The position numbers and the translations under genes were made by a program. A model generated the notes under the pieces. The model ran no database searches. It was not told the DNA's origin and worked only from the letters and a program-made list of their open reading frames with translations. DNA of 64,000 nt from an uncultured Prevotellaceae bacterium (GTDB lineage: Bacteria > Bacteroidota > Bacteroidia > Bacteroidales > Bacteroidaceae). This document shows, one piece after another, positions 5,255-62,567 of this stretch; positions within the stretch are counted from its first letter, which is position 1, and every line of letters starts with the position of its first letter. The DNA lies in contig CAMWJL010000001.1 in assembly GCA_947174565.1 (NCBI GenBank), positions 3,946 through 67,945 of the forward strand, given 5' to 3'.

Positions 5255-6436
5255 ATGGCGAAACGATTCACGCATATTGACTGCTTTGCAGGACCAGGAG
5301 GCATTTGCACTGGTCTTCATGCTGCTGACTTCGAGACATTAGTGGCGATTGAGTATGTCAAAAGTTGCTGTGAAACTTACCAATACAACCATCCCGAGGT
5401 GCATGTGATACACTCTGACATCCGAAAGGTGGGAAAGGAGGACATCGAAAAGTATATACCTCAAGAAGGCGTGGATTTGGTGACATCGGGAATGCCATGC
5501 GAGACATTCAGCAATGCGGGCACAACGTCGCGTTCATTCTATGATGACCGTCAATTTCTTTTCCGCGAGGGCATTAGGATTGCCCAACTGGCAAATGCGA
5601 AGATGATTCTGTTTGAGAATGTTCCCGGGATTACTTCCAAGACTGTTGCTGCGGACGACCCCACGTTAATCATCAATGTGCTGAAACAAGAGTTGAAGGA
5701 AGCTGGATACGAGAATTACATCGAGGCGAAACTCAGCGCAGTGGATTTTGGCGTTCCGCAGAAGCGTGTGAGGTATTTTATATTGGCGACACGGTTTAAG
5801 GATTGGGAGTTGTCGGCACCAACGCCAACACACACAGAAGCCGTCACCGTTGGAGATGCCTTGGCAGGACTGCCCGAGGTTTTCCCTAATACGGATATAT
5901 ATGGGACAGAATACACCAAAGAGGCATCGGCATATTCTAACCTAATGCGCAATCTCGAATTTTGGCATAGAGAGTCATTCGATGACTCAAAAATTGTCAA
6001 TCATTTCCCCATGCGCCATAAGGCTGGGACACTGAAACGTTTTTCACTGATTCGCCCAGGAGAGGGAGTGAAACATTTATTTGCACGTCTAAGTACAGAA
6101 GAAATAGCAAAGCTTCAAGCACAGAAGGTGTTGCCCAAAAAGGTTTTTGCAAAGAGGAATATCCGACTGGAAAAAGACAGACCTGCCTTAACCGTAACGA
6201 GCCATTGTCTTGATGAAAACATCCATCCCATTCAGGACAGAGCACTCACCGTCAGGGAATGCGCCCGTTTGCAGTCATTCCCAGACACTTACTATTTCTG
6301 TGGTCCCTATTCAGTTTCTCATGACAATAGGGATGTACAGGACAAATACGAACAGATTGGCGATGCAGTCCCTCCACTTTTGGCATACGCATGGGGCAGC
6401 AACATCAGCAACATCCTAAACAGATACACGCTATGA
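5255..6436 (+). CDS. DNA (cytosine-5)-methyltransferase, modification subunit of a type II R-M pair
   Basis: C5-MTase motifs: I FAGPGG, IV GMPCETFS (catalytic Cys), VI ENVPG, VIII QKRVRYFILA, then TVRECARLQSFPD and GDAVPP. Confidence 0.9.
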   Translation: MAKRFTHIDCFAGPGGICTGLHAADFETLVAIEYVKSCCETYQYNHPEVHVIHSDIRKVGKEDIEKYIPQEGVDLVTSGMPCETFSNAGTTSRSFYDDRQFLFREGIRIAQLANAKMILFENVPGITSKTVAADDPTLIINVLKQELKEAGYENYIEAKLSAVDFGVPQKRVRYFILATRFKDWELSAPTPTHTEAVTVGDALAGLPEVFPNTDIYGTEYTKEASAYSNLMRNLEFWHRESFDDSKIVNHFPMRHKAGTLKRFSLIRPGEGVKHLFARLSTEEIAKLQAQKVLPKKVFAKRNIRLEKDRPALTVTSHCLDENIHPIQDRALTVRECARLQSFPDTYYFCGPYSVSHDNRDVQDKYEQIGDAVPPLLAYAWGSNISNILNRYTL

Positions 6437-7311
6437 ATATCGAAGAGAAAATCTATGATTATAGTTTGTCTCACTACAACAATGTGTACAAGCTGACAAA
6501 GGAAAGGCTGGAAGCCGAAGCAATGGACAAACCCCACAACAGCATCCTGTCTGATTCAAAGAAGAAAGAGATTGAAAATCTTGCCCAGCTCGAAGCTATC
6601 AAGACAACAATGACGGATGGGAGATTATTGTTCCCTGATGACATTCCCTTGCTTTGGAACTCTATCTATAAGGCACATCTGTACCGCAAGTCGGGTATAA
6701 GCGACCCCGAAGTTGTGGCAAATGCAATTGCAGCGGCTCAAAGTTGGAAAGCTGCTTCTGGACACGCTTTTGAATATATGACAAAGGATTTGGCTACGCT
6801 TGCTTTTCATGGAACGTCCATTCGTTTCATTTTGCAAAAGGATTTGAACACCTTATTGAAAGCAAACGAATTAGCCAACGAGGTGAGGGATATCAGTTGG
6901 CTAAAGGAGCAAGTCAAGACAGACAATTTTGACCTTTATGCGGTCAATGATGTAGATGACAAGACTTATTGCTTTGGATGTGTACAATGCAAAACAAGCA
7001 TTCGCGACAGAGTTTCGCGCGACAGGGAAATTTCTTCGACAGCTATGAGTGCTTACTTTTGGAGTATCTCCATCGTGCTTGACGGGACTTATCTTAGTAC
7101 ACCCAAATACCGCACAATGGTAAATGGCGGTGAGAGTCCGTTCTTGGACAATGGTTGGCACGGCATGTACGACCTTTCGGGTTGCTATCCTGTTGACCGC
7201 ATCTATGCCCTTGACGTACAATTCGATTTATTACGCAGCCATGCGATACAAGCAAAAGACGCTTGGTTGAAGCAAAGGCAGTGGCTTGACAGAACTTGGA
7301 GAGCAAAATAG
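6433..7311 (+). CDS. Putative type II restriction endonuclease, PD-(D/E)xK fold, CC:GG-family-like
   Basis: 292 aa counted from the ATG at 6433. That ATG overlaps the methylase stop as ATGA. Candidate catalytic and recognition block: NFD167 .. QCK187-TSI-R191-D192-R193 .. E199. No other family is recognisable by eye. Confidence 0.6.
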   Translation: MNIEEKIYDYSLSHYNNVYKLTKERLEAEAMDKPHNSILSDSKKKEIENLAQLEAIKTTMTDGRLLFPDDIPLLWNSIYKAHLYRKSGISDPEVVANAIAAAQSWKAASGHAFEYMTKDLATLAFHGTSIRFILQKDLNTLLKANELANEVRDISWLKEQVKTDNFDLYAVNDVDDKTYCFGCVQCKTSIRDRVSRDREISSTAMSAYFWSISIVLDGTYLSTPKYRTMVNGGESPFLDNGWHGMYDLSGCYPVDRIYALDVQFDLLRSHAIQAKDAWLKQRQWLDRTWRAK

Positions 7312-19496: not shown

Positions 19497-19600
19497 CCGT
19501 CGCAATGACTTAAAGAGATACAATGGTGGGATAAAGGGTTCGGCCCAATCTGCGTATCGCCCAACCCCAATAATAACCAAACGAACCCGAAAAAAGCATT

Positions 19601-20038
19601 ATGTCAAAATTAAAATCAGGCGTCATCTTAGACACAGATGAAAACCTCGTCGTCGAACTGGAAGCGGAACTGTGGGCAAGCAGCCAGAACCCCATCGCCA
19701 AACTGATTGGCACCGTAACCCGTTTAATCAACCTGCTGCTCGGCTTCAAGCGTCGAGGCTACATCGTCATCACCGACAAACGCGTCATCGAGGTAACTCA
19801 GTACATCTCATTATGGGTGTTCAACACAGGCAAGGGCGTGAAGTATGTGCTCCCCAGCAGTGTGAAGGAAGTCGGCTACACGAAAGAGGGAACGTGCCTT
19901 GGCTGCTTCTGCCAGGCCTACAGCCTCTACTACGATTCATTCACACAGCGCACCTCTGTGTTGCTCCCAGTGTCTTCCGAAGCTGAGACCAAGAAGATTG
20001 TCGATGCGTTCTACAACGCCATCAGCAAAAATCAATAA
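19601..20038 (+). CDS. Hypothetical protein, possibly a bacterial PH-like fold
   Basis: 145 aa. RRGYIVITDKRVIEV ... VLPSSVKEVGY resembles bPH-domain patterns. It is the first gene of a tightly packed trio. Confidence 0.5.
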   Translation: MSKLKSGVILDTDENLVVELEAELWASSQNPIAKLIGTVTRLINLLLGFKRRGYIVITDKRVIEVTQYISLWVFNTGKGVKYVLPSSVKEVGYTKEGTCLGCFCQAYSLYYDSFTQRTSVLLPVSSEAETKKIVDAFYNAISKNQ

Positions 20039-20041
20039 AGA

Positions 20042-20482
20042 ATGTCGGAACAAACCATCTCGACATTCTCTCGATACCTTTATCTGAACAGCTATGCCTT
20101 TCTCCTGCTTGCCATGGGAACAGGCATAGCTTTCATTCCACTCTACCGAATCAGTTGGTGGCTCTTGATTCCGCAGGCACTGGGAGCAATCCCCTGTCTG
20201 AAAGGGGCTTACAGCATCTTCTCCTCGTGGGAGGACAAGAAACGGAAATACCACATGCTGATGGAACGCAACCGCACCGAATTGCGCCCAGACACATTCA
20301 CGGAGTTCATGCAAGCACCATGTGGACGACTGCTGAGCCGAGTGGTGCTGGCTGACCTTGGACGCAGCGATGCGTATCCGACGCTGAAACGCCTGACGCA
20401 GAAGCCCCTGCGGAAACGCCTGCAAGAAGGGTGCAAGCCACAAAAGACTATTATCTACACGAACGAAAACTACCTACCATGA
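20042..20482 (+). CDS. Hypothetical membrane protein
   Basis: 146 aa with two N-terminal hydrophobic helices. It starts 4 nt after the previous stop. Confidence 0.5.
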   Translation: MSEQTISTFSRYLYLNSYAFLLLAMGTGIAFIPLYRISWWLLIPQALGAIPCLKGAYSIFSSWEDKKRKYHMLMERNRTELRPDTFTEFMQAPCGRLLSRVVLADLGRSDAYPTLKRLTQKPLRKRLQEGCKPQKTIIYTNENYLP

Positions 20483-21123
20483 GTATCTTTATCATCATCC
20501 TGTTCACCATCATCATCTTAGCGTGCGCCTATCTGATTCTGCGCTACTTGGTCATCCCGATGCCAAAGTCGTCGGAAAAGACACTGCTCTTCATCGCCAC
20601 CGTCGTCGGAACGCTCCTGTTCAGCACCTTACTCATCCTCGCCACGTTCATCCCCAGCCAAGTCAACGCATTCATCGACGACGGCATAGCCAAAGTGGAA
20701 GAGAATATCAACACCATTTCTCCTGACTACATCCACGAGGAACAAGACCCGACAAAACTAAAGGAGTTTCTCTCTAACTACAAACAGATTCAAGCAGGGC
20801 TTGAATCGAACGACGGCGCGCAGCTCCTGACCGAGCTGATAGGCGTAAACACATATATCAAGTATCTGAACTTCTTCACATCCAGCATCGACACCAACTT
20901 GCGGGAGATGGAAGAAGAACACATCCCGTTCACTATCCACAACATCTTCATGCGTGTACAAGAGAAAAGCCAGGATAGCGTCTTGGAGATAACACGAACA
21001 ATAGAGATTGCGATTCTGATTATTACACTCCTCTTCTTCATCGTCGTCGTGAGTGCTTATTTCCTCCTCAAGCACGACATGTCAGACGATGGGAAAGTCA
21101 TCATCGTAGGAGAAACCAACTAA
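20479..21123 (+). CDS. Hypothetical membrane protein
   Basis: Start at MSIFIIILF, an ATGA overlap with the previous stop. It has two N-terminal TM helices and one C-terminal TM helix flanking a helical domain. Confidence 0.5.
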   Translation: MSIFIIILFTIIILACAYLILRYLVIPMPKSSEKTLLFIATVVGTLLFSTLLILATFIPSQVNAFIDDGIAKVEENINTISPDYIHEEQDPTKLKEFLSNYKQIQAGLESNDGAQLLTELIGVNTYIKYLNFFTSSIDTNLREMEEEHIPFTIHNIFMRVQEKSQDSVLEITRTIEIAILIITLLFFIVVVSAYFLLKHDMSDDGKVIIVGETN

Positions 21124-50028: not shown

Positions 50029-50211
50029 CATCAGGAATTTTGCTTTTACATGTAATATAAACACATCAATGCTTAACTAAACCAAAAACCATCAGGCCCA
50101 AGCTGCGAAGCCCAACGCCTTCCGCCCAGAGGCATCCCCCCTGCGGCAATAAAAGATTGAACAAGGTTCAATTCTCTTTGAAACCAACTTCGTGCTCCAA
50201 GCACGAAAAAA

Positions 50212-50242
50212 GGGGCATCTCGCCACGAGATGCCCCTTTTTT
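50212..50242. terminator. Bidirectional rho-independent terminator
   Basis: An A-run, then GGGGCATCTCG (50212-50222), loop cca, CGAGATGCCCC (50226-50236), then T6. Confidence 0.8.
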
Positions 50243-50289
50243 CTGACACATTGACAAAACCATGATGGCATTGCCGACCCCAAGCAGCT

Positions 50290-50382
50290 CTTCACTATAT
50301 ATTTTACCACTCGAACATCAAAAAGCTTGCAGAAGTCATCTGCCATACAGAATAAATCCGTAACTTTGTCATCGGAGAGCAT
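50290..50382 (-). pseudogene. IS982-family-like transposase 5' fragment (copy c1)
   Basis: Encodes MLSDDKVTDLFCMADDFCKLFD..VKY and then loses similarity. It is homologous at the nucleotide level to 55498-55588 and 62472-62567. Confidence 0.55.
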
Positions 50383-50483
50383 AGCAATTATTATTGGTCA
50401 TTTAGTACAGTAATTTTTGTTAATTGCAAAACTTTCAGACAATTAGATTTCGTCGAACTTACGTTATTTAAGAATTATTATAT

Positions 50484-53462
50484 ATGCTATCAACTATTCT
50501 TTCCATATCACTTTCTAATCCAATAATAATAGCTTTTGTTGTAGTTATGATGATATCAATGGCTATTTACCTAATCCACTTTATCACTTACAAGATTGGC
50601 AAAAACAAGTTTGAAAAGCAGGCAAAAGAATTGGTAGAACAAATCAATACGGCACAGCAGGAACTTGAAACCATGTATATGCCTACGCATTTGCTTACAA
50701 ACAAGGATATTGAAGATTTCCAGACTCAACACCAATCTTTGTTAGCAAACATAGAAGTCCTCAAAAAACACAAATACTATAATGAAGACATTTTTGAAAA
50801 AACAGGCATTGCCTCTTTCATGGTTTCGTTTGCAGACAGCAAGGTTAAGAAAGAAGAAAACAACAAAGTCTATAATGCTCTTGCAGAATTAAAAGACAAT
50901 GCAACAAAAATGATGGATAGCTACCGAGCTTTACTCCATCCGTCACATTACTTTGCTCATTCAGAACTGGAAGACTTTATTAAATCACATAATGAGATTA
51001 AAGACAATATCAACTTCATATTTCCCCAATATGCCCAGTTTGTGACAGATGACGACAGCAAACAACTTCCTTCCATTATACTGCGTATAGAAATAGAACG
51101 TACAGAACATAACAAAAAGTTCATTAAATCAGAAATAGAAACCAATAAACTATATTTTGACCATGTGCTTGGGACATATCCGCTCGACCCACAGCAAAGA
51201 GACTCTATTGTAAAACTCGAAGATAATTGTCTTGTGATAGCCAGTGCTGGAAGCGGTAAAACATCAACCATCGTAGGCAAAGTTAAGTATCTAGTGGAGA
51301 AGCAACATATCAATCCCACAAAGATTCTCATTCTAACCTACACAAAAAAAGCAGCTAACGAATTGTCGTCTCGTATACAGATAGCAGGATTGAATAGCGG
51401 CACGTTTCACAGCCTTGCTTATCACATTATTGCGGAGGTAACAGGTCAAACCCCATCAATATGTAACGCAGATGTACCACTGAATGTATTCCGTAAATTG
51501 ATTATGAAAGATGAGCATTTCCTTAATGCTGTCAATAATTACGTTATTAACTGTCAGTCGTTGATGAAACTGGAACACGACTACATAGATGCTTTTGCTT
51601 ATTTTGAAGACAGAAAAAAATATGGAATACAGGCACTATTCCCCGATATTGACGGAAAGGTAATTTTCACTCGAAGTGAAGAAGAAAAGCGACTTTGTTC
51701 CATCTTAACACGTTTGGGTCTCATGTTTCGATACGAATGTGATTATCCTATCAATACACGGACTCCGGAACGTAGGCAATACAAGCCTGACTTTACAATC
51801 TATTTCAAAGACAGACAAGGCCAGTGGCAGCGTATCTATCTAGAACATTTCGCCATTGACAAAAATGGAAAAACCCCTCGTTGGTTTGGAGAAGGGACAA
51901 AAGGTGGGTGGAAAGTTGCCAACAAAAAATACATTGAGGGTATTGATTGGAAACGAAATACTCATAGGCAGAATGGAACTGTGCTTATAGAAACAACCAG
52001 TGCAGATTTCCACAATGAGTCTGTAGAGCAGAAGCTCATCGACCAGCTATCAAAATATGGTGTAGCTATCAGGCAACGTACAGACAAAGAGCTTTATGAC
52101 ATGTTGATACAGCGTAACCACCAGATGGAAAAAACGGTTTTTACTTTGCTTCTCTCATTTATTACCTTGATGAAAGCCAATGAAAAAACTATCGATGGTT
52201 TGCTTGCAACGTTCAAACCCCAAGATGGTTACATGATGACTCCCAATGAGAAACGCAATAAATACATACTGACAGAGATTGTTAAACCATTTTTCGAGGC
52301 TTATCAAACAGAATTAGAAAAGAACCTTGAGATTGATTTTACTGATGCTATCATTCAAGCGACAGCTCTTTGCCGCGATGGATTATGGAAGCATTATGAT
52401 TATATTTTGGTTGATGAGTTTCAGGATATATCTATAGATAGATACAAACTACTACAAGCATTGCGCTCTAACAAGCCTAAAACCAAACTTTATTGTGTTG
52501 GTGACGACTGGCAATCTATTTTCCGCTTTGCGGGCAGCGACATGGCACTTTTTTATGATTTTGAACAATATTTTGGCTTTACAGAACTTTGTAAAATTGA
52601 AACGACCTATCGCTTTCATCAGCCTCTTATAGACAAATCTTCAGCTTTCATAATGAAGAATCCCGCCCAAAAAGAGAAAAATATAAAAACACCTCAGGGC
52701 GACCTCCAAAAGACATTCCTTAACTTTGTAAAATGTAACTCAAAAAATGATGGCGTATTGAAAAAGGTTGAGGAAATTGTAATGTCCCTGCCTATAAATA
52801 ACACGATTCTTCTCATGGGACGCTATAACTATGATGCAATGTCAATAGGTTTCAAAGGGAAGATTGATTATAGTAACAACCACATTAAGGTAAACATTGC
52901 AGGACGTGACATTTTCTTTTTGTCCATCCACTCAGCAAAGGGGATAGAAGCAGACCATGTAATTCTTATCAACTGTAATCAAGGTGCATATGGTTTTCCC
53001 TCTTTGATAGAAGATGACCCCATATTGGACTTTGTTTTAAGTCGTAGCGAGCAATACCCATTTGCAGAAGAACGCCGTCTTTTTTATGTAGCAATGACCC
53101 GTGCAAAGAAACGGATGTACATTCTATATGACCAACAGCGACCATCACCTTTCATTTGTGAGTTTCTTTTGAAATTAGAAATTGGTTCTCGTCTTTGTCC
53201 AAAGTGTCTTGAAGGTAAGATTGTCCCCATCAAGGATGGCACTTCATCCAATGGAATATCATATCGTTCTTTCACTTGTACTAACAACGAGGCAGGATGT
53301 GATTTCTTTGAAACTCGTTTCGGTGACCTCACTCCGCCTGGTATTCTTGTCACAGAAAATATGACGGCACAAGATATTGAGCATTTGCGTGAAAACCGAC
53401 GGCATACGAAACAAACCGGTGGACACAGATATACCATTACACAGCAAAATCGGTGGACATAG
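50484..53462 (+). CDS. Predicted membrane-anchored UvrD/helicase-IV-like SF1 helicase with an embedded PD-(D/E)xK-like module and a C-terminal zinc ribbon
   Basis: 992 aa. TM helix at about residues 10-32. Helical region to about residue 230. Helicase motifs: I ASAGSGKTST (254-261), II ILVDEFQD (641-648), III VGDDWQSIFRFAGS, then SIHSAKGIEADHVILI, and VI RRLFYVAMTRAKKRMYIL. The insert between motifs I and II contains RSEEEKRL..YKPD436F..IYLE454HFAIDK. Zinc ribbon: C905-x2-C908 ... C932-x6-C939. The gene is visibly AT-rich. Confidence 0.75.
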   Translation: MLSTILSISLSNPIIIAFVVVMMISMAIYLIHFITYKIGKNKFEKQAKELVEQINTAQQELETMYMPTHLLTNKDIEDFQTQHQSLLANIEVLKKHKYYNEDIFEKTGIASFMVSFADSKVKKEENNKVYNALAELKDNATKMMDSYRALLHPSHYFAHSELEDFIKSHNEIKDNINFIFPQYAQFVTDDDSKQLPSIILRIEIERTEHNKKFIKSEIETNKLYFDHVLGTYPLDPQQRDSIVKLEDNCLVIASAGSGKTSTIVGKVKYLVEKQHINPTKILILTYTKKAANELSSRIQIAGLNSGTFHSLAYHIIAEVTGQTPSICNADVPLNVFRKLIMKDEHFLNAVNNYVINCQSLMKLEHDYIDAFAYFEDRKKYGIQALFPDIDGKVIFTRSEEEKRLCSILTRLGLMFRYECDYPINTRTPERRQYKPDFTIYFKDRQGQWQRIYLEHFAIDKNGKTPRWFGEGTKGGWKVANKKYIEGIDWKRNTHRQNGTVLIETTSADFHNESVEQKLIDQLSKYGVAIRQRTDKELYDMLIQRNHQMEKTVFTLLLSFITLMKANEKTIDGLLATFKPQDGYMMTPNEKRNKYILTEIVKPFFEAYQTELEKNLEIDFTDAIIQATALCRDGLWKHYDYILVDEFQDISIDRYKLLQALRSNKPKTKLYCVGDDWQSIFRFAGSDMALFYDFEQYFGFTELCKIETTYRFHQPLIDKSSAFIMKNPAQKEKNIKTPQGDLQKTFLNFVKCNSKNDGVLKKVEEIVMSLPINNTILLMGRYNYDAMSIGFKGKIDYSNNHIKVNIAGRDIFFLSIHSAKGIEADHVILINCNQGAYGFPSLIEDDPILDFVLSRSEQYPFAEERRLFYVAMTRAKKRMYILYDQQRPSPFICEFLLKLEIGSRLCPKCLEGKIVPIKDGTSSNGISYRSFTCTNNEAGCDFFETRFGDLTPPGILVTENMTAQDIEHLRENRRHTKQTGGHRYTITQQNRWT

Positions 53463-53591
53463 ACACATTCCTAATAAATCATTTTGTAGAAATAATTTTT
53501 AGACAATTGACAATCACTAAACTCATATCCAAATTAAGAGATGTACCTTGATTTCAATCAGAGCAAAATAAACAACTATAAATCAATTATT

Positions 53592-54137
53592 ATGATAGAC
53601 CAAATTATTGCTTACAACAAGACGTTCGTGGCGGAAAAGGGCTACGAGAAGTATCTGACGGACAAGTACCCTGACAAGCGGCTGGCGGTGCTTTCGTGTA
53701 TGGACACCCGACTGACGGAGTTGCTTCCTGCTGCGCTCGGCTTGAAGAATGGGGATGCGAAGATTATCAAGAATGCTGGGGGCTTGGTTATTTCGGCTTT
53801 CGATTCTGCCATGCGAAGCCTCGTGGTTGCCATCTATGAGCTGGGCGTGAAGGAGATTATGGTGGTGGCTCACAGCCATTGTGGGGCTTGCCACATGAGC
53901 TACGACCACTTCCATCATGAGATGATTGCGCGTGGCGTGACGGACGAGACGCTCGATACGATTCGCAAGTGCGGCATCGACCTGAACACTTGGCTGGAAG
54001 GATTCAAGGACACGACGGAATCGGTGAAGAAAACGGTCACGACCATCAAGACGCATCCGCTTGTCCCGAAGGATATTGTGGTGCGTGGGTTTATCATTGA
54101 CTCGGAAACGGGCGAATTAAGTGAAGTTGTAGGCTGA
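53592..54137 (+). CDS. Beta-class carbonic anhydrase
   Basis: Start at MIDQIIAYNKTF. Zinc-ligand motifs SCMDTRL and AHSHCGA. Confidence 0.85.
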   Translation: MIDQIIAYNKTFVAEKGYEKYLTDKYPDKRLAVLSCMDTRLTELLPAALGLKNGDAKIIKNAGGLVISAFDSAMRSLVVAIYELGVKEIMVVAHSHCGACHMSYDHFHHEMIARGVTDETLDTIRKCGIDLNTWLEGFKDTTESVKKTVTTIKTHPLVPKDIVVRGFIIDSETGELSEVVG

Positions 54138-55497: not shown

Positions 55498-55588
55498 CCC
55501 ACCGAGGGCAAAGTTACTGATATTTCTTGTATTGCAAATGACTTCCACAAGTTTTTTTGACATCCCGATAGCAAAATATATGGTGAAA
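55498..55588 (+). pseudogene. IS982-family-like transposase 5' fragment (copy c2, frameshifted)
   Basis: Encodes TEGKVTDISCIANDFHKFF*. A T7 run replaces the T6 of copy c3 and creates a stop. On the opposite strand it reads TTTG-N18-TAacTTTG (55509-55538), facing the DUF805 gene. Confidence 0.55.
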
Positions 55589-55874
55589 GGTTGTTATAGC
55601 CCCTCTGTTTAAGACGCACCTTTCACAAAGACATCTCCAAGGATGCTGGAATATGCCCCGATGATGCTACATACAACTTTCCCAAAAGCTGTGAAACTTC
55701 TCTATTTAGGGCATCATTAAAGGAATTAAAGAAACGCACTTTGGGGTAGTCTCTTACAGGCTATATTAGTGTTTTTATAGTTTCCAAATGGCAAAGCCCC
55801 AATATCAATAAATGAATTAAATTGCAAGAAAAATCCAATATAGATTGAGTTTACAAAAAAATCTCTTACAAAAT

Positions 55875-55905
55875 TTTGCAGATTCAAGAATACTTCATAA
55901 CTTTG
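55875..55905 (+). promoter_or_regulatory. Canonical Bacteroidota promoter (TTTG-N19-TAacTTTG)
   Basis: TTTG at 55875-55878 and TAacTTTG at 55898-55905. It would start a plus-strand transcript at about 55912 that runs into the structured element. Confidence 0.55.
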
Positions 55906-55960
55906 AAGCGGTATTCTTTGGAGTATCATTTATAAACGAAGAAGCGTTTTGCTTATCTCT

Positions 55961-56078
55961 TATTGAGAAAACGTAGGAAATTTTCACAATGATGAGAGGA
56001 TAACAAAGCGGTTCCCGCGTTAAGCGTGGGCTGCTATTCCCTCATCTTCATCATAGGTTTCCTACGACCTTCTCAATA
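55961..56078 (+). ncRNA. Candidate structured RNA (an sRNA, or a cis-regulatory leader of the small secreted protein gene)
   Basis: Helices: 55961-69/56070-78 (9 bp), 55972-80/56058-66 (9 bp), 55991-56000/56038-46 (9 bp with one bulge), and GC-rich apical stems around 56007-56035. It lies about 50 nt downstream of the predicted promoter. I recognise no known family. Confidence 0.4.
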
Positions 56079-56157
56079 GAAACGGGCAATTCAGTCCACG
56101 TTTCTGTATCTAAAAATGGTCGATAGGGCTGTAAGACCAACAAAACACGCAATGCGT

Positions 56158-56478
56158 ATGAAAAAAATTTTTTTAATGGTGAGTGCTATCATGCTTTCAA
56201 TTTGCGTTTATGCAAATACATGCACGTATGATGGTGTTCAAGTTAGCCTACAATCTGAAAAAGTACAATGTATAACGGGTGTGGCTATAATCAAAATTTC
56301 AGTAAATGACACATCAAAGAAAGAGGTAAGGTGTCAAGTTGAAGTGGCTAATCAGCGCGCATGGATTACTGTTCAATTGAATTCTGGTTCAGGGACATTT
56401 AACATAGCCAAAGCTATTAGTTTGCCAAATGGTACTCATACTATTAAACTAATCCAAGAAGGAGGTATGTGTTATTGA
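56158..56478 (+). CDS. Small secreted Cys-containing hypothetical protein
   Basis: Signal peptide MKKIFLMVSAIMLSICVYA. The mature part is about 85 aa, beta-rich, with 4 Cys. The start could also be 56152. The context is AT-rich. Confidence 0.5.
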   Translation: MKKIFLMVSAIMLSICVYANTCTYDGVQVSLQSEKVQCITGVAIIKISVNDTSKKEVRCQVEVANQRAWITVQLNSGSGTFNIAKAISLPNGTHTIKLIQEGGMCY

Positions 56479-56519
56479 TTTCCAGTTAAGATATATTTAC
56501 ACTATCTTTTCTGCATAGT

Positions 56520-56554
56520 GGGCTTTAACGTATTTTCGTAGTGCGTTAAAGCCC
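56520..56554 (+). terminator. Hairpin terminator after the small secreted protein gene
   Basis: GGGCTTTAACG (56520-56530) pairs with CGTTAAAGCCC (56544-56554), followed by ATTTCAT. Confidence 0.6.
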
Positions 56555-56760
56555 ATTTCATATACAAACAACCTCTATTAACTTCATCGTGCCGCAAGGC
56601 TGGCACGAATTATGCGAATAAACAACTCCGTTACATTTATCTGCTTCTCATCACAATCTCTCGGCAGACGAGATTAAGATTCTTTACTTATGTTCCGTTG
56701 AGGATAAACGGGATAGAAAGGTCGCTTTTGTTCTCAAACAGGAAGGTCGGACACTGGGCA

Positions 56761-62471: not shown

Positions 62472-62567
62472 ATGCTTACCGAGGGCAAAGTTACTGAATT
62501 TATTTGTGTTGCGCATGATTTCTGCCAGTTTTTTGATGCCACGACGGCAAAATATGCCACAAGAAGC
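62472..62567 (+). pseudogene. IS982-family-like transposase 5' fragment (copy c3)
   Basis: Encodes MLTEGKVTEFICVAHDFCQFFDATTAKYA and then runs into repeat copy D. The first 20 nt after the first two codons are identical to copy c2. Confidence 0.55.

What the first reader, a model, noticed from the sequence alone, without database searches (positions are those of the whole stretch)
50484..53462. AT-rich single-gene island encoding a predicted membrane-anchored SF1 helicase with an embedded nuclease-like module and a zinc ribbon (candidate stand-alone defence or DNA-surveillance gene)
**Composition.** The sequence drops sharply in G+C across about 50385-53590. Hand counts of two 60-nt lines inside the island gave 17 and 18 G+C. 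A line in the neighbouring peptidase gene gave 35.

**Boundaries.** The island is bounded on the left by a bidirectional terminator plus the IS982-like fragment c1. A 10-bp direct repeat, CAATTATTAT, occurs at both edges (50385-50394 and 53584-53593). That is weak evidence in AT-rich DNA.

**Architecture of the single 992-aa ORF.**
- One strongly hydrophobic N-terminal helix (residues about 10-32).
- About 200 residues of helical or coiled-coil sequence.
- A complete UvrD/Rep/helicase-IV-type motif set: AGSGKT, DEFQD, VGDDWQSIFRFAGS and VAMTRAKKR.
- A gap of about 380 residues between motifs I and II. It contains RSEEEKRL...YKPD436F...IYLE454HFAIDK, which resembles Vsr/DUF559/PD-(D/E)xK-type nuclease cores.
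- A C-terminal CxxC...Cx6C ribbon of the topoisomerase type.

**Why it matters.** Nuclease-helicase fusions (for example Nhi, and the UvrD-like GajB partner in Gabija) are recurrent anti-phage effectors. A membrane-tethered version is unusual for this helicase family. It would place the enzyme where foreign DNA enters the cell. No partner gene is visible. If this is a defence function, it acts as a single gene.
Basis: partly seen in the sequence, partly recalled or inferred. Interest (0 to 1): 0.7.

Follow-up and report, generated by a model that had tools for sequence, protein, structure and literature searches.

The report
Membrane-anchored helicase-nuclease on an acquired island
A 3.3-kb AT-rich block, absent from a closely related genome, carries one gene for a membrane-tethered DNA helicase with a DNA-cutting domain built into it; it belongs to a large, uncharacterised, horizontally mobile family that probably destroys invading DNA, though that role is untested.

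Summary
ORF 50484-53462 (992 aa) lies in a low-GC block (0.34-0.41, against 0.50-0.61 in the flanks). A close relative (L092) has identical flanks but no helicase.

The protein has these parts:
- One N-terminal TM segment, predicted N-out/C-in.
- A helical region of about 190 aa.
- A complete UvrD-type SF1A core, closest to helicase IV but below its equivalog cutoff, with no 2B domain.
- A 250-aa insert at the start of domain 1B.
- A Cys4 ribbon.

The insert folds confidently (pLDDT 94.5) as a restriction-endonuclease-like domain. Its profile matches T7 endonuclease I, with E401 and D436 on catalytic E20 and D55. E401, D436, E454 and H455 are invariant; the canonical Lys is missing.

The insert-bearing family has about 1,240 clusters at 50% identity across several phyla. 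It is patchy (about 220 of 185,000 species), occurs on 56 plasmids, has no conserved partner gene, and often sits beside R-M, McrBC and other defence genes.

A stand-alone, membrane-tethered anti-foreign-DNA nuclease-helicase is the best reading. It is not demonstrated. No PADLOC model or paper I found covers it.

The parts
50205..50243 (.). Bidirectional terminator hairpin (perfect 18-bp arms). It is native sequence and marks the last bases shared with the empty-site relative.
   Evidence: Inverted repeat I2. Homology with L092 ends at 50243.
50244..53585 (+). Inserted AT-rich block of 3,342 bp. It replaces 34 bp present in the empty-site relative L092.
   Evidence: blastn of window against L092: left homology ends at 50243 and right homology resumes at 53586. 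GC 0.34-0.41.
50287..50385 (-). IS982-like 5' remnant (about 30 codons, MLSDDKVTDLFCMADDFCKLFD...). It lies inside the inserted block. It is not an intact IS.
Evidence: Two diverged copies elsewhere in the window, at 55501-55588 and 62472-62567. Absent from L092 at this site.
50385..50394 (+). Left copy of the 10-bp direct repeat CAATTATTAT. It is internal to the block, 141 bp from its left edge.
53584..53593 (+). Right copy of the 10-bp direct repeat. Its last 8 nt are native sequence upstream of, and overlapping, the carbonic-anhydrase start codon.
50484..53462 (+). Helicase-nuclease ORF, 992 aa.
   Evidence: The identical protein P0001 is in an NCBI Bacteroidaceae MAG.
50520..50576 (+). Residues 13-31: single N-terminal transmembrane anchor. 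There are no basic residues before it and a K/R cluster after it, so the predicted topology is N-out/C-in.
   Evidence: KD19 2.73. All 34 close relatives score 2.2-3.4. 50 of 59 distant relatives have such a segment. Based on hydropathy only; no dedicated TM predictor was available.
50601..51173 (+). Residues about 40-230: all-helical N-terminal region of unknown function.
   Evidence: AF2 helices with pLDDT 79-90. No Pfam or PADLOC family of note.
51183..51437 (+). Residues 234-318: helicase domain 1A, first part (Q motif, Walker A with K259, motif Ia).
   Evidence: Pfam UvrD-helicase. Aligns with PcrA residues 12-100.
51432..52190 (+). Residues 317-569: insert at the start of domain 1B.
   Evidence: PcrA residues 100-144 correspond to query residues 316-570. 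AF2 model of the insert alone: pLDDT 94.5, pTM 0.89.
51645..52073 (+). Residues 388-530: core of the restriction-endonuclease-fold (PD-(D/E)xK-type) nuclease domain. E401, D436, E454 and H455 are invariant.
   Evidence: alpha-beta-beta-beta-alpha-beta topology. Foldseek against PDB and BFVD. Profile hit to T7 endonuclease I, and 12 of 30 members hit PF05367. Conservation.
52191..53162 (+). Residues 570-893: remainder of 1B, then 1A and 2A (motifs II DEFQD, III, IV, V, VI). There is no 2B domain.
   Evidence: Pfam UvrD-helicase and UvrD_C. NCBIfam helicase IV stretch 545-893. PcrA residues 317-556 correspond to only query residues 740-807.
53196..53300 (+). Residues 905-939: Cys4 zinc ribbon (CPKC...C-x6-C).
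   Evidence: The four Cys are invariant in 34 sequences and at least 90% conserved in 60. The ribbon aligns with the Acinetobacter homologue's ribbon, which scores 41.7 bits on PF01396. The window protein itself has no PF01396 hit.
53446..53500 (+). C-terminal frameshift relative to homologues. The relatives' basic tail (GGRRYIPNK...) is encoded in the +1 frame (GGHRHIPNK) after the in-frame stop.
   Evidence: compared with the alignment. A short direct repeat spans the stop codon (D2).

Best explanation
Window 50244-53585 is a horizontally acquired single-gene island. Its product is an inner-membrane-anchored protein with its bulk in the cytoplasm.

**Architecture**
- A UvrD-type (SF1A, helicase IV-like) ATP-driven DNA translocase that lacks a 2B domain.
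- A metal-dependent nuclease of the restriction-endonuclease fold, related to T7 endonuclease I and to Vsr/DUF2726, inserted at the start of domain 1B. From the known position of 1B in UvrD/PcrA structures, this is next to the path of the DNA. I did not examine it in the model.
- A C-terminal topoisomerase-type zinc ribbon, probably a DNA clamp or DNA-binding element.

**Shown here**
- The gene is an insertion.
- The helicase motifs are intact.
- The insert has the nuclease fold with an invariant E/D/E-H set.
- The anchor is conserved across the family.
- The family is patchy, plasmid-borne, stand-alone and often next to defence genes.

**Inferred**
- The enzyme loads on DNA ends, single-stranded DNA or branched DNA that appears at the membrane (injected phage DNA or conjugally transferred DNA).
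- It translocates 3'->5' like other SF1A enzymes and cuts the substrate with the built-in nuclease.
- It therefore works as a one-protein defence or exclusion system.
- Tethering limits access to the chromosome.

I am about 90% confident of the molecular description. I am about 50% confident of the defence role.
For: **Insertion**
- The empty-site relative L092 has flank proteins 90-98% identical and exact breakpoints at 50243/53586.
- GC is about 16 points below the flanks.
- In 36 loci, homologues have lower GC than their flanks by a mean of 5.6 points.

**Helicase**
- Pfam UvrD-helicase at 1.4e-42 and UvrD_C at 1.5e-19.
- Helicase IV is the best NCBIfam match.
- Sequence matches to PcrA, UvrD and Rep and structure matches to the same enzymes.

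**Nuclease**
- Insert model with pLDDT 94.5.
- Top PDB fold hits are I-Bth0305I (prob 0.95, TMt 0.72), Vsr, NGO0050, MspI and TnsA.
- 16 BFVD hits at E<=1e-3, annotated homing endonuclease, DUF2726, restriction enzyme or VSR endonuclease.
- The profile hits T7 Endo I at E 1e-3 to 5e-3, with E401 aligned to E20 and D436 to D55.
- 12 of 30 members hit PF05367.
- E401, D436, E454 and H455 are invariant in sequences down to about 30% identity.

**Anchor**
-.

**Mobility and context**
- About 220 of 185,579 species genomes carry a relative, spread across Bacteroidota, Bacillota, Patescibacteria, Fibrobacterota and a Methanobrevibacter MAG.
- 56 plasmids carry a relative.
- Neighbourhoods differ in every genome examined.
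- One homologue is adjacent to McrBC, a HpaII restriction fragment and an HTH gene.
- The six most frequent Pfam families among 149 nearest neighbours are SLFN-g3 helicase, Fic, N6_Mtase, RE_endonuc, ResIII and AAA_21. Summing family counts gives about 21 of 149 neighbours; overlaps were not resolved. One review's abstract quotes about 1.5% of bacterial genes as defence genes (PMC13434031, seen).
- The Acinetobacter plasmid homologue sits beside a multiubiquitin/ThiF/DUF6527 module, DUF3800, an IS5 element and an integrase.
- Relatives swap in WYL, TPR or RNase_T modules.

**Conceptual precedent**
- The membrane-anchored nuclease Mpr has been proposed to degrade incoming phage DNA (PMC12596739).
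Against: - There is no experimental evidence of any kind.
- No PADLOC model matches the insert, the N-terminus or the ribbon. The whole-protein PADLOC hits (GajB, RTasHel) reflect only the shared UvrD core.
- The canonical Lys of (D/E)xK is absent (E454-H455-F456), so nuclease activity is inferred, not certain.
- PDB Foldseek E-values for the insert are all above 0.1, and the window member itself has no Pfam hit on the insert.
- In this window the neighbours are purely housekeeping genes.
- The defence-neighbour enrichment was not compared with a matched control, and each neighbour family occurs only 2-4 times.
- TM topology rests on hydropathy and the positive-inside rule alone.
- 9 of 59 relatives lack the anchor, so tethering is not obligatory for the family's core activity.
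- The full-length AF2 model is only moderate (pLDDT 70, pTM 0.48). The position of the nuclease relative to the DNA path was not examined.
Confidence: 0.5

Rival explanations
1. It is an accessory DNA repair or recombination enzyme. In this reading it is a helicase IV-like motor with a junction-resolvase-like nuclease (T7 Endo I type) that processes stalled forks, Holliday junctions or other branched intermediates of the host chromosome.
For: - Helicase IV is the best NCBIfam match.
- The closest sequence relative of the nuclease, T7 endonuclease I, is a junction-resolving enzyme (function from established knowledge).
- The Acinetobacter relative has a weak Helicase_IV_N match.
- The window's neighbours are housekeeping genes.
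Against: - The gene is absent from the closest relative at the same locus.
- It is present in only about 0.1% of species genomes, with a cross-phylum patchy pattern.
- It is plasmid-borne.
- Its position varies, often next to R-M or defence genes.
- A membrane anchor is not expected for a chromosomal repair helicase.
- It scores below the helicase IV equivalog cutoff (344.5 against 543).
Confidence: 0.17
2. It is a mobile-element function rather than host immunity. The gene would serve the plasmid, prophage or ICE that carries it, for example by processing the element's own DNA at the membrane during transfer, replication or packaging, or by excluding competing elements for the element's benefit.
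For: - 56 plasmids carry homologues, and 34 of them are mobilizable or conjugative.
- The Prevotella sp. MA2016 homologue lies in an IMG/VR provirus call, between ORFs with weak terminase and portal matches.
- An IS-like remnant lies within the inserted block.
- HU-HIG, DUF5675 and Peptidase_S24 genes lie nearby in other loci.
Against: - In this window and in L081 the gene stands alone among housekeeping genes, with no element around it.
- DNA homology between loci is confined to the ORF.
- Only 1 IMG/VR contig and 3 unannotated phage-collection fragments carry it.
- No relaxase, T4SS or replication gene is a recurrent neighbour.
- Exclusion of competing elements is in practice a form of defence, so this rival overlaps with the best explanation.
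Confidence: 0.15
3. The insert is a catalytically dead structural or DNA-binding module, comparable to the inactive nuclease-like domains in RecC or AddB. The protein would then be only a membrane-tethered translocase or helicase.
For: - The canonical Lys of the (D/E)xK motif is missing: E454-H455-F456.
- The window member does not reach any nuclease Pfam model.
- PDB fold E-values are weak.
Against: - E401, D436 and E454, the three metal-binding positions, are invariant across about 30%-identity relatives, together with H455.
- Dead nuclease domains usually lose these residues (general knowledge).
- E401 and D436 align exactly with T7 Endo I catalytic residues E20 and D55.
- Vsr-type enzymes use His rather than Lys at the equivalent strand (my recall of the Vsr literature; not tested here).
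- K490 in the adjacent helix is at least 90% conserved and could supply the positive charge.
Confidence: 0.1
4. It is a HelD-like RNA-polymerase recycling factor. In Gram-positive HelD the module inserted in 1A is the clamp-opening domain; here the insert would play that role.
For: - It has a helicase IV/HelD-like core without a 2B domain, plus a long helical N-terminal region.
- There is a weak Foldseek match to the B. subtilis HelD C-terminal domain: 6vsx, E 0.045.
Against: - No HelD-RNAP structure appears among the sequence or fold matches above noise.
- The insert has a nuclease fold with an intact acidic triad.
- The membrane anchor and the accessory, mobile distribution do not fit a transcription housekeeping factor.
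Confidence: 0.03

Closest known systems
E. coli DNA helicase IV (HelD; NCBIfam NF008276)
   Same: - It is the best-scoring named family for the motor: 344.5 bits, with stretch 545-893 matching model positions 345-672.
- It is UvrD-type SF1A with an extra N-terminal region.
- A TM-less relative shows a weak Helicase_IV_N match.
   Different: - The score is below the equivalog cutoff of 543.
- The window protein has no Helicase_IV_N hit.
- It has an extra nuclease domain between motifs Ia and II.
- It has a TM anchor and a Zn ribbon.
- It is not a conserved chromosomal gene.
Phage T7 endonuclease I (gp3; Pfam PF05367; PDB 1fzr, 1m0d, 2pfj, 3cae)
   Same: - It is the closest sequence relative of the insert core: profile E 1e-3 to 5e-3, and 12 of 30 members hit PF05367.
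- S-x-x-E (E20) and P-D-F (D55) align with S398/E401 and P435-D436-F437.
- A Glu on the next strand (E454) matches E65 by inspection.
   Different: - T7 Endo I is a small, free, domain-swapped dimer. Here the domain is a monomeric insertion in a helicase.
- Lys67 has no counterpart (F456).
- H455 is invariant instead.
- The matches are marginal, and the window member itself is below detection.
Vsr / DUF559 / DUF2726 / I-Bth0305I branch of restriction-endonuclease-fold nucleases
   Same: - These are the best structural matches: 3r3p with prob 0.95 and TMt 0.72; 1vsr, 1cw0 and 3hrl; BFVD DUF2726, VSR and homing endonucleases at E 1e-4 to 1e-3 with RMSD 3-5 A over about 130 columns.
- A His follows the beta3 acidic or polar residue, as in Vsr (my recall of the Vsr active site).
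- DUF2726 is described as an REase-fold DNase fused to defence modules (PMC3710099).
   Different: - No Pfam HMM of these families is matched.
- The domain is inserted inside a helicase rather than free or terminal.
Single-protein nuclease-helicase defence systems (Nhi, Hhe/HheA, Hna), the two-protein Hachiman HamAB, and RecBCD/AddAB
   Same: - They follow the same logic: an ATP-driven DNA translocase coupled to a nuclease that degrades foreign or damaged DNA.
- Several are stand-alone genes in defence islands. The list of helicase-bearing defence systems is in PMC12278908.
   Different: - The helicase clades or domain orders differ. From my recall, HheA and Nhi are Upf1/DNA2-like SF1B enzymes with terminal nucleases, HamB and Hna are SF2, and RecB and AddA carry a C-terminal RecB nuclease.
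- None is known to be membrane-anchored.
- None of their PADLOC models matched the insert.
Gabija GajB
   Same: PADLOC GajB models hit at up to 3.9e-44, and PDB GajB chains at about 1e-12, both through the shared UvrD core.
   Different: - No GajA (OLD/TOPRIM) partner lies next to the gene.
- GajB has no inserted nuclease, no TM anchor and no ribbon.
- The insert gives no PADLOC hit.
Membrane-associated anti-phage nucleases or sensors (mycobacterial Mpr; Zorya; Kiwa)
   Same: - The concept is the same: a defence component placed at the membrane, where phage DNA enters.
- Mpr is a membrane-anchored nuclease proposed to degrade the injected genome (PMC12596739).
- The Zorya and Kiwa comparisons are from my own knowledge.
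   Different: - There is no sequence or domain relationship.
- Those are multi-protein systems or different folds.
[quoted passage not shown]' (cut off), so anchoring may not be required even there.

Membership tests
UvrD/Rep/PcrA-type SF1A helicase | Pfam UvrD-helicase and UvrD_C above gathering cutoffs. | tested here: met
   146.7 bits (cutoff 23) and 71 bits (cutoff 25.6).
UvrD/Rep/PcrA-type SF1A helicase | Complete motif set (Q, I, Ia, II, III, IV, V, VI) with Walker A Lys and DExx. | tested here: met
   AGSGKT (K259), DEFQD, VGDDWQSIFRFAGS, HSAKG and VAMTRAKKR are invariant in 34 relatives.
UvrD/Rep/PcrA-type SF1A helicase | Four-subdomain layout including a 2B domain. | tested here: not met
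   PcrA residues 317-556 correspond to only query residues 740-807, so there is no room for 2B. This is a variant layout, as in helicase IV-like proteins.
DNA helicase IV (HelD) equivalog NF008276 | Score at or above the curated cutoff of 543 bits. | tested here: not met
   344.5 bits.
DNA helicase IV (HelD) equivalog NF008276 | Helicase_IV_N (PF12462) N-terminal domain. | tested here: not met
   No hit on residues 1-230 at E<=10. A TM-less plasmid relative gives 21.8 bits against a cutoff of 24.5.
DNA helicase IV (HelD) equivalog NF008276 | Conserved chromosomal gene at a stable locus in relatives. | tested here: not met
   An empty site exists in L092. Neighbourhoods differ in all loci examined.
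PD-(D/E)xK (restriction-endonuclease-fold) nuclease superfamily | alpha-beta-beta-beta-alpha-beta core fold. | tested here: met
   AF2 insert model with pLDDT 94.5, showing H83-94, E98-101, E121-126, E132-140, H159-181 and E185-189. Fold matches are almost exclusively to members of this superfamily.
PD-(D/E)xK (restriction-endonuclease-fold) nuclease superfamily | Conserved acidic residues: Glu on helix 1, Asp at the start of strand 2, and Asp/Glu on strand 3. | tested here: met
   E401, D436 and E454 are invariant in 30 diverse cores. E401 and D436 align with T7 Endo I E20 and D55.
PD-(D/E)xK (restriction-endonuclease-fold) nuclease superfamily | Lys two residues after the strand-3 acidic residue ((D/E)xK). 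| tested here: not met
   The sequence is E454-H455-F456, with H455 invariant. Lys-less and His-using variants such as Vsr are known in the superfamily (my recall).
PD-(D/E)xK (restriction-endonuclease-fold) nuclease superfamily | Metal-dependent phosphodiester cleavage. | not testable with these tools
   Requires biochemistry.
Phage endonuclease I family (PF05367) | Significant match to the family HMM. | tested here: inconclusive
   12 of 30 family members match at E>=2.3e-3. The window member does not match. The profile search against T7 Endo I PDB chains gives E 1.2e-3 to 5.2e-3 and covers only the first half of the domain.
Vsr / DUF559 / DUF2726 | Match to the family HMMs. | tested here: not met
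   No Pfam hit at E<=10 for the insert. Only structural similarity was found.
Topoisomerase-type C4 zinc ribbon (PF01396) | HMM match above the 32-bit cutoff. | tested here: inconclusive
   The window C-terminus has no hit. The aligned ribbon of the Acinetobacter homologue scores 41.7 bits and that of P0224 scores 36.3 bits. The four Cys are conserved family-wide.
Gabija (GajA + GajB) | Adjacent GajA OLD-family ATPase/TOPRIM partner. | tested here: not met
   The neighbours are an anti-sigma factor and a beta-carbonic anhydrase. GajA-like genes occur near only 2 of 79 homologue loci.
Catalogued single-gene nuclease-helicase defences (Nhi, Hhe, Hna) | Match of the nuclease module or the whole protein to the system's PADLOC model. 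| tested here: not met
   The insert, N-terminus and C-terminus give no relevant PADLOC hit. The whole-protein top 25 hits are only RTasHel and GajB; hits ranked 26-44 were not displayed.
Anti-phage defence gene (operational definition) | Enrichment next to known defence genes. | tested here: inconclusive
   Conflict-system families top the neighbour list, at about 21 of 149 neighbours by summed counts. McrBC is adjacent in L082. No matched control was run, and the window's own neighbours are housekeeping genes.
Anti-phage defence gene (operational definition) | Protection phenotype on phage or plasmid challenge. | not testable with these tools
   Requires experiments.
Horizontally acquired genomic island | Presence/absence polymorphism with conserved flanks, and atypical composition. 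| tested here: met
   L092 empty site with breakpoints at 50243/53586. GC 0.34-0.41 against 0.50-0.61.
Horizontally acquired genomic island | Recognisable integration machinery or a target-site duplication. | tested here: not met
   There is no integrase or intact IS. The 10-bp repeat does not flank the block, because its left copy is 141 bp inside.

The most novel reading that the evidence does not exclude
This gene represents a large, uncatalogued class of one-protein immune effectors. About 1,240 clusters at 50% identity carry the insert across Bacteroidota, Bacillota, Pseudomonadota plasmids, Patescibacteria and others.

In this reading, an SF1A DNA motor is tethered to the cytoplasmic face of the inner membrane and carries a junction-resolvase-like nuclease in place of part of its 1B domain. 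It would capture and shred foreign DNA as that DNA enters the cell. Membrane tethering would provide the self/non-self discrimination that other systems obtain from DNA modification or Chi sites.
Probability: 0.4. Interest if true: 0.75.

Novelty: new variant of a known kind. Interest (0 to 1): 0.62.

Why it matters
Helicase-nuclease pairs are a recurring design in prokaryotic immunity and repair. How they avoid attacking the host chromosome is usually the key mechanistic question.

Three features set this family apart from the known examples:
- The nuclease is built into the helicase at the 1B position rather than attached at an end.
- The enzyme is tied to the membrane in most members.
- It works without a partner gene.

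If it is a defence system, it would offer a simple one-gene model for spatial self/non-self discrimination. It would also add a widespread family to defence catalogues. The family is well represented among gut and rumen Bacteroidales in this survey and occurs on Acinetobacter, Vibrio and Pseudomonas plasmids.

If it is not a defence system, a membrane-anchored UvrD-like nuclease-helicase still lacks any known cellular role. The predictions are directly testable with point mutants (K259A, E401A, D436A, E454A, H455A) and an anchor deletion.

Tried and rejected
**Leads that gave nothing**
- Pfam on the isolated N-terminus, insert and C-terminus of the window protein found nothing useful. The DPM3, Vpu and LapA hits only reflect the hydrophobic helix.
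- PADLOC on the three isolated regions found nothing for the insert. A Cmr1 hit (1.1e-5) on residues 14-78 matches a 78-position model over the TM/coiled stretch, and I treat it as spurious.
- Foldseek of the full-length model returned only the helicase core and said nothing about the insert. I therefore folded the insert separately.
- The sigma-70 promoter and terminator scan was no better than shuffles, and it is not appropriate for Bacteroidota promoters.
- Six literature searches with various term sets found no paper describing this architecture. One further search failed on syntax.

**Ideas tested and rejected**
- The 10-bp repeat as a target-site duplication: the left copy is internal to the block and most of the right copy is native sequence.
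- A shared mobile element around the gene: DNA homology to 90 other loci stops at the ORF ends.
- A conserved partner gene: the best recurrent neighbour occurs in 5 of 81 locus groups.
- Phage carriage as the rule: there is only one IMG/VR locus and three short unannotated 'Bacteriophage sp.' fragments. The pattern-based viral scan would miss distant relatives.

**Considered but rejected as the main reading**
- Core helicase IV.
- GajB.
- HelD-type RNAP factor.
See the membership tests for the reasons.

Full report

Yes. The six-frame scan shows a single long ORF at 50484-53462 (+), 992 aa, with only short spurious ORFs overlapping it. GC falls to 0.34-0.41 between about 50250 and 53750. The flanks are at 0.50-0.61.

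- AGSGKT with K259.
- DEFQD at 644-648.
- VGDDWQSIFRFAGS and VAMTRAKKR.
- RSEEEKRL, YKPD436F and YLE454HFAID.
- C905-x2-C908 ... C932-x6-C939.

The terminator is a perfect 18-bp inverted repeat at 50205-50243. The 10-bp repeat CAATTATTAT occurs exactly twice in the window, at 50385 and 53584. Two of 100 shuffles reach two copies.

**2. It is an insertion, and the boundaries can be set exactly.**

I searched metagenome contigs with the upstream anti-sigma protein and recovered L092. Its DPP-IV, RidA, acetylglutamate kinase, sigma, anti-sigma, carbonic anhydrase, DUF4250 and thioesterase proteins are 90-98% identical to the window's. In L092 the anti-sigma gene is followed about 250 bp later by the carbonic-anhydrase gene, with no helicase between them.

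At the DNA level, homology ends at window 50243, the last base of the terminator, and resumes at 53586. So 3,342 bp in the window (50244-53585) replace 34 bp in L092.

- The left edge is 141 bp further left than proposed. The block includes the short IS982-like remnant at 50287-50385 on the minus strand.
- The direct repeat does not flank the block. The ATTATTAT of its right copy is native sequence immediately upstream of the carbonic-anhydrase start. It cannot be called a target-site duplication.

No integrase or intact IS is present. DNA homology to 90 other helicase-bearing loci stops at the ORF ends. How the block moved is therefore unknown.

**3. The protein: anchor and N-terminal region.**

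Residues 13-31 score 2.73 on a 19-residue Kyte-Doolittle window. No other part of the protein exceeds 1.05. All 34 close relatives have one such segment (2.2-3.4) whose sequence is not conserved. In every case a Lys/Arg cluster follows it and no basic residue precedes it. By the positive-inside rule this is an N-out/C-in anchor, with the enzyme in the cytoplasm.

Among 59 diverse insert-bearing relatives, 50 have an equivalent segment before the Walker A motif. These calls rest on hydropathy only, because no dedicated predictor was available.

Residues about 40-230 are confidently helical. They match no informative family.

**4. The protein: helicase.**

Pfam UvrD-helicase (1.4e-42) and UvrD_C (1.5e-19) are far above their cutoffs. 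The best NCBIfam model is helicase IV, at 344.5 bits against an equivalog cutoff of 543. PcrA, UvrD, Rep, UvrD1, AdnB and RecB are the best PDB matches by sequence and by fold.

The PcrA alignment gives the layout:
- Query residues 234-316 match PcrA 12-100.
- Query residues 570-740 match PcrA 144-317.
- Query residues 807-886 match PcrA 556-623.

So about 250 residues are inserted at the beginning of domain 1B, and there is no room for a 2B domain.

**5. The protein: the insert is a restriction-endonuclease-fold nuclease domain.**

Three independent lines agree.

(a) Structure prediction. Folded alone with a 60-sequence alignment, the insert reaches pLDDT 94.5 and pTM 0.89. Its core runs helix, three strands, long helix, strand. 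The same topology appears in the full-length model.

(b) Fold search.
- Against the PDB, the best matches are the I-Bth0305I homing endonuclease (prob 0.95, target TM 0.72), Vsr (two entries), the DUF559 protein NGO0050, MspI, TnsA, Mus81 and EndoMS. All have E > 0.1.
- Against predicted viral structures, 16 matches reach E <= 1e-3 with probability 1.00 and RMSD 3-5 A over about 130 columns. They are annotated homing endonuclease, DUF2726, restriction enzyme, VSR endonuclease or PD-(D/E)XK nuclease.

(c) Sequence profile.
- A profile of 30 diverse cores hits four T7 endonuclease I chains at E 1.2e-3 to 5.2e-3.
- Separately, 12 of the 30 members hit Pfam Phage_endo_I.
- In the alignment to the full-length chain 2pfj_A, family S398/E401 fall on S17/E20 and P435-D436-F437 fall on P54-D55-F56. 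From established knowledge of that enzyme, E20 and D55 are two of its four catalytic residues.

Conservation supports activity. Across sequences down to about 30% identity, the invariant residues are S398, E401, Y417, E418, Y421, P435, D436, F437, Y452, E454, H455, Y483 and S506.

The one missing element is the Lys of (D/E)xK. The strand reads E454-H455-F456. The invariant His recalls Vsr-type sites (my recall, not tested). K490 on the neighbouring helix is at least 90% conserved.

I conclude that the fold assignment is solid and that activity is likely but unproven.

**6. The protein: C-terminal ribbon.**

The four cysteines are invariant in close relatives and at least 90% conserved in the wider family. 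The window protein itself does not reach the Pfam topoisomerase-ribbon model. However, its ribbon aligns with that of an Acinetobacter plasmid homologue (CPKCG...GAFLGCSRYPNC). That homologue scores 41.7 bits against a cutoff of 32, and another relative scores 36.3 bits.

**7. The family and its distribution.**

- More than 120 full-length relatives at 67% identity or higher were listed. All those with a name are annotated only as 'UvrD-helicase domain-containing protein', from Bacteroidaceae and Muribaculaceae MAGs.
- Searching the insert alone against 1.84 billion representatives gives 1,238 clusters at E <= 1e-3 and 506 at E <= 1e-10. Nearly all are 700-1,200-aa proteins with the insert at the same relative position.
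- In the species-level genome collection, 220 stretches encode a relative, out of 185,579 species.
  - Most are gut or rumen Bacteroidales.
  - More distant ones (31-32% identity, residues about 206-945 only) are in Bacilli, Erysipelotrichaceae, Saccharibacteria, Fibrobacterota and a Methanobrevibacter MAG.
- Fifty-six plasmids carry it: Acinetobacter 32, Vibrio 5, Pseudomonas 3 and others.
- The gene's GC is lower than its flanks by a mean of 5.6 points in 36 loci.
- Relatives that lack the anchor carry other modules: weak Helicase_IV_N, WYL, TPR, or an RNase_T exonuclease.

This is the profile of an accessory, horizontally mobile gene with shuffled sensor and effector modules. It is not the profile of a core helicase.

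**8. Genomic context.**

There is no conserved partner. After removing redundant loci, the most recurrent neighbour family appears in 5 of 81 locus groups.

The neighbourhoods differ between genomes:
- Housekeeping genes in the window and in L081.
- McrBC, a HpaII restriction fragment and an HTH gene immediately upstream in L082/L083.
- HU-HIG, DUF5675, Peptidase_S24 and WYL small-gene clusters in L085 and L089.
- A predicted provirus in Prevotella sp. MA2016, between ORFs with weak terminase and portal matches.
- On Acinetobacter plasmid pAS49-2, a cargo region with a multiubiquitin/ThiF/DUF6527 module, a second UvrD-like gene, DUF3800, an IS5 element and an integrase.

I scanned 149 nearest neighbours from 79 loci in bulk.
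- The six most frequent Pfam families are SLFN-g3 (DUF2075) helicase, Fic, N6_Mtase, RE_endonuc, ResIII and AAA_21.
- The leading PADLOC hits are type III, type I and type IIG R-M, PDC candidates, MADS, AriA, GajA and SoFic.
- Summing family counts gives roughly 21 of 149 neighbours. One review's abstract quotes about 1.5% of genes as defence genes (PMC13434031, seen).

This comparison is suggestive only. I could not resolve overlaps between families, and I ran no matched control.

**9. Mechanism.**

Shown here:
- An acquired gene.
- An intact SF1A motor.
- A nuclease-fold insert with an invariant metal-binding set, at the 1B position.
- A conserved membrane anchor.
- A conserved ribbon.
- A stand-alone, mobile gene that often has defence genes as neighbours.

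Inferred:
- The protein sits on the cytoplasmic face of the inner membrane.
- It engages DNA ends, ssDNA or branched DNA arriving there.
- It translocates 3'->5' and cleaves with the built-in nuclease.
- Tethering reduces access to the chromosome.

A membrane-anchored nuclease proposed to attack the injected phage genome exists in mycobacteria (Mpr; PMC12596739). Helicase-nuclease defence systems are numerous (list in PMC12278908).

The rivals are a repair or junction-processing accessory enzyme, an element-serving function, a dead nuclease domain, and a HelD-type RNAP factor. They are weighed in the rival section. None is excluded by computation alone.

**10. Comparison with known systems, and novelty.**

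The protein is a member of the UvrD-type SF1A helicases and of the restriction-endonuclease-fold superfamily. It fails the membership tests for helicase IV (score, N-domain, conserved locus) and for GajB (no GajA partner). It also fails for the catalogued single-gene nuclease-helicase defences (no PADLOC model matches its distinctive parts).

I found no paper describing the architecture.

The concept, a helicase fused to a nuclease acting on foreign DNA, is well known. New here are the internal placement of a T7 Endo I/Vsr-like nuclease, the near-universal membrane anchor, and the size of an unrecognised family. I therefore rate it a new variant of a known kind.

**11. Limits.**

- No wet-lab evidence exists.
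- No dedicated TM predictor was available.
- I had no access to model coordinates, so I could not check active-site geometry.
- The PDB fold E-values are weak.
- The window member is below Pfam detection for the nuclease.
- The neighbour enrichment has no control.
- The viral scan used two peptide patterns and would miss distant relatives.

Noticed in passing
window 55596-56694: A second AT-rich block (GC about 0.35-0.38) is also absent from the empty-site relative L092, where about 67 bp stand in its place. It contains a 120-aa ORF at 56116-56478 with a hydrophobic, signal-like N-terminus. It begins immediately after an IS982-like remnant (55501-55588) that is itself present in L092.
   Followed up: partly
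window 50287-50385 (-), 55501-55588 (+), 62472-62567 (+): There are three diverged copies (74-79% DNA identity over 70-86 nt) of a short IS982-like 5' remnant encoding about 30 codons (xxGKVTDxxCxAxDFCxFFD). None is an intact IS. Two of the three abut AT-rich indels, which suggests these remnants mark recombination or insertion hot spots.
   Followed up: partly
window 53446-53500: The helicase ORF ends ...QQNRWT*, while homologues continue ...GGRRYIPNKHYRR. That tail is encoded here in the +1 frame (GGHRHIPNKSFCRNNF*). The window gene therefore carries a terminal frameshift, which may be real or a MAG assembly error. A 17-nt direct repeat spans the stop codon. Many homologues lack the tail naturally.
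   Followed up: yes
window 53541-54137: The mechanical ORF for the downstream beta-carbonic anhydrase starts at 53541 inside the inserted block. Homology with L092 and the called gene in L091 place the real start at 53592 (MIDQIIAYNK...). The insertion therefore replaced this gene's native upstream region, so its promoter may now lie in foreign DNA or it may be read through from the helicase gene.
   Followed up: partly
L094 3987-6954 and L096 8528-11413: In two other syntenic relatives, about 3 kb of unidentified sequence lies between the anti-sigma gene and the thioesterase gene, with no helicase and no carbonic anhydrase. In L097-L103 the two genes are about 270 bp apart. This intergenic position therefore seems to be a recurrent site of gene gain and loss.
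   Followed up: no
L129 2936-6328 (Acinetobacter seifertii plasmid pAS49-2): A second, larger 'UvrD-helicase domain-containing protein' (1,130 aa) with a hypothetical gene and a sigma-70 family gene lies 1.8 kb from the family member, next to a multiubiquitin/ThiF/DUF6527 module. This looks like a dense plasmid defence or cargo island.
   Followed up: no
L128 / L004 (Prevotella sp. MA2016), 5489-7258 and 19508-20827: The only close cultured carrier of the gene has it inside an IMG/VR provirus call, between ORFs with weak PHROG matches to large terminase (2.3e-7) and portal protein (5.3e-5). Most surrounding ORFs have no Pfam or PHROG match.
   Followed up: partly
L074 (Methanobrevibacter MAG), L073 and L071 (Saccharibacteria): Relatives at about 29-32% identity occur in an archaeal methanogen MAG and in CPR bacteria from gut or rumen samples. 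This implies inter-domain transfer within the habitat, unless the contigs are mis-binned.
   Followed up: no
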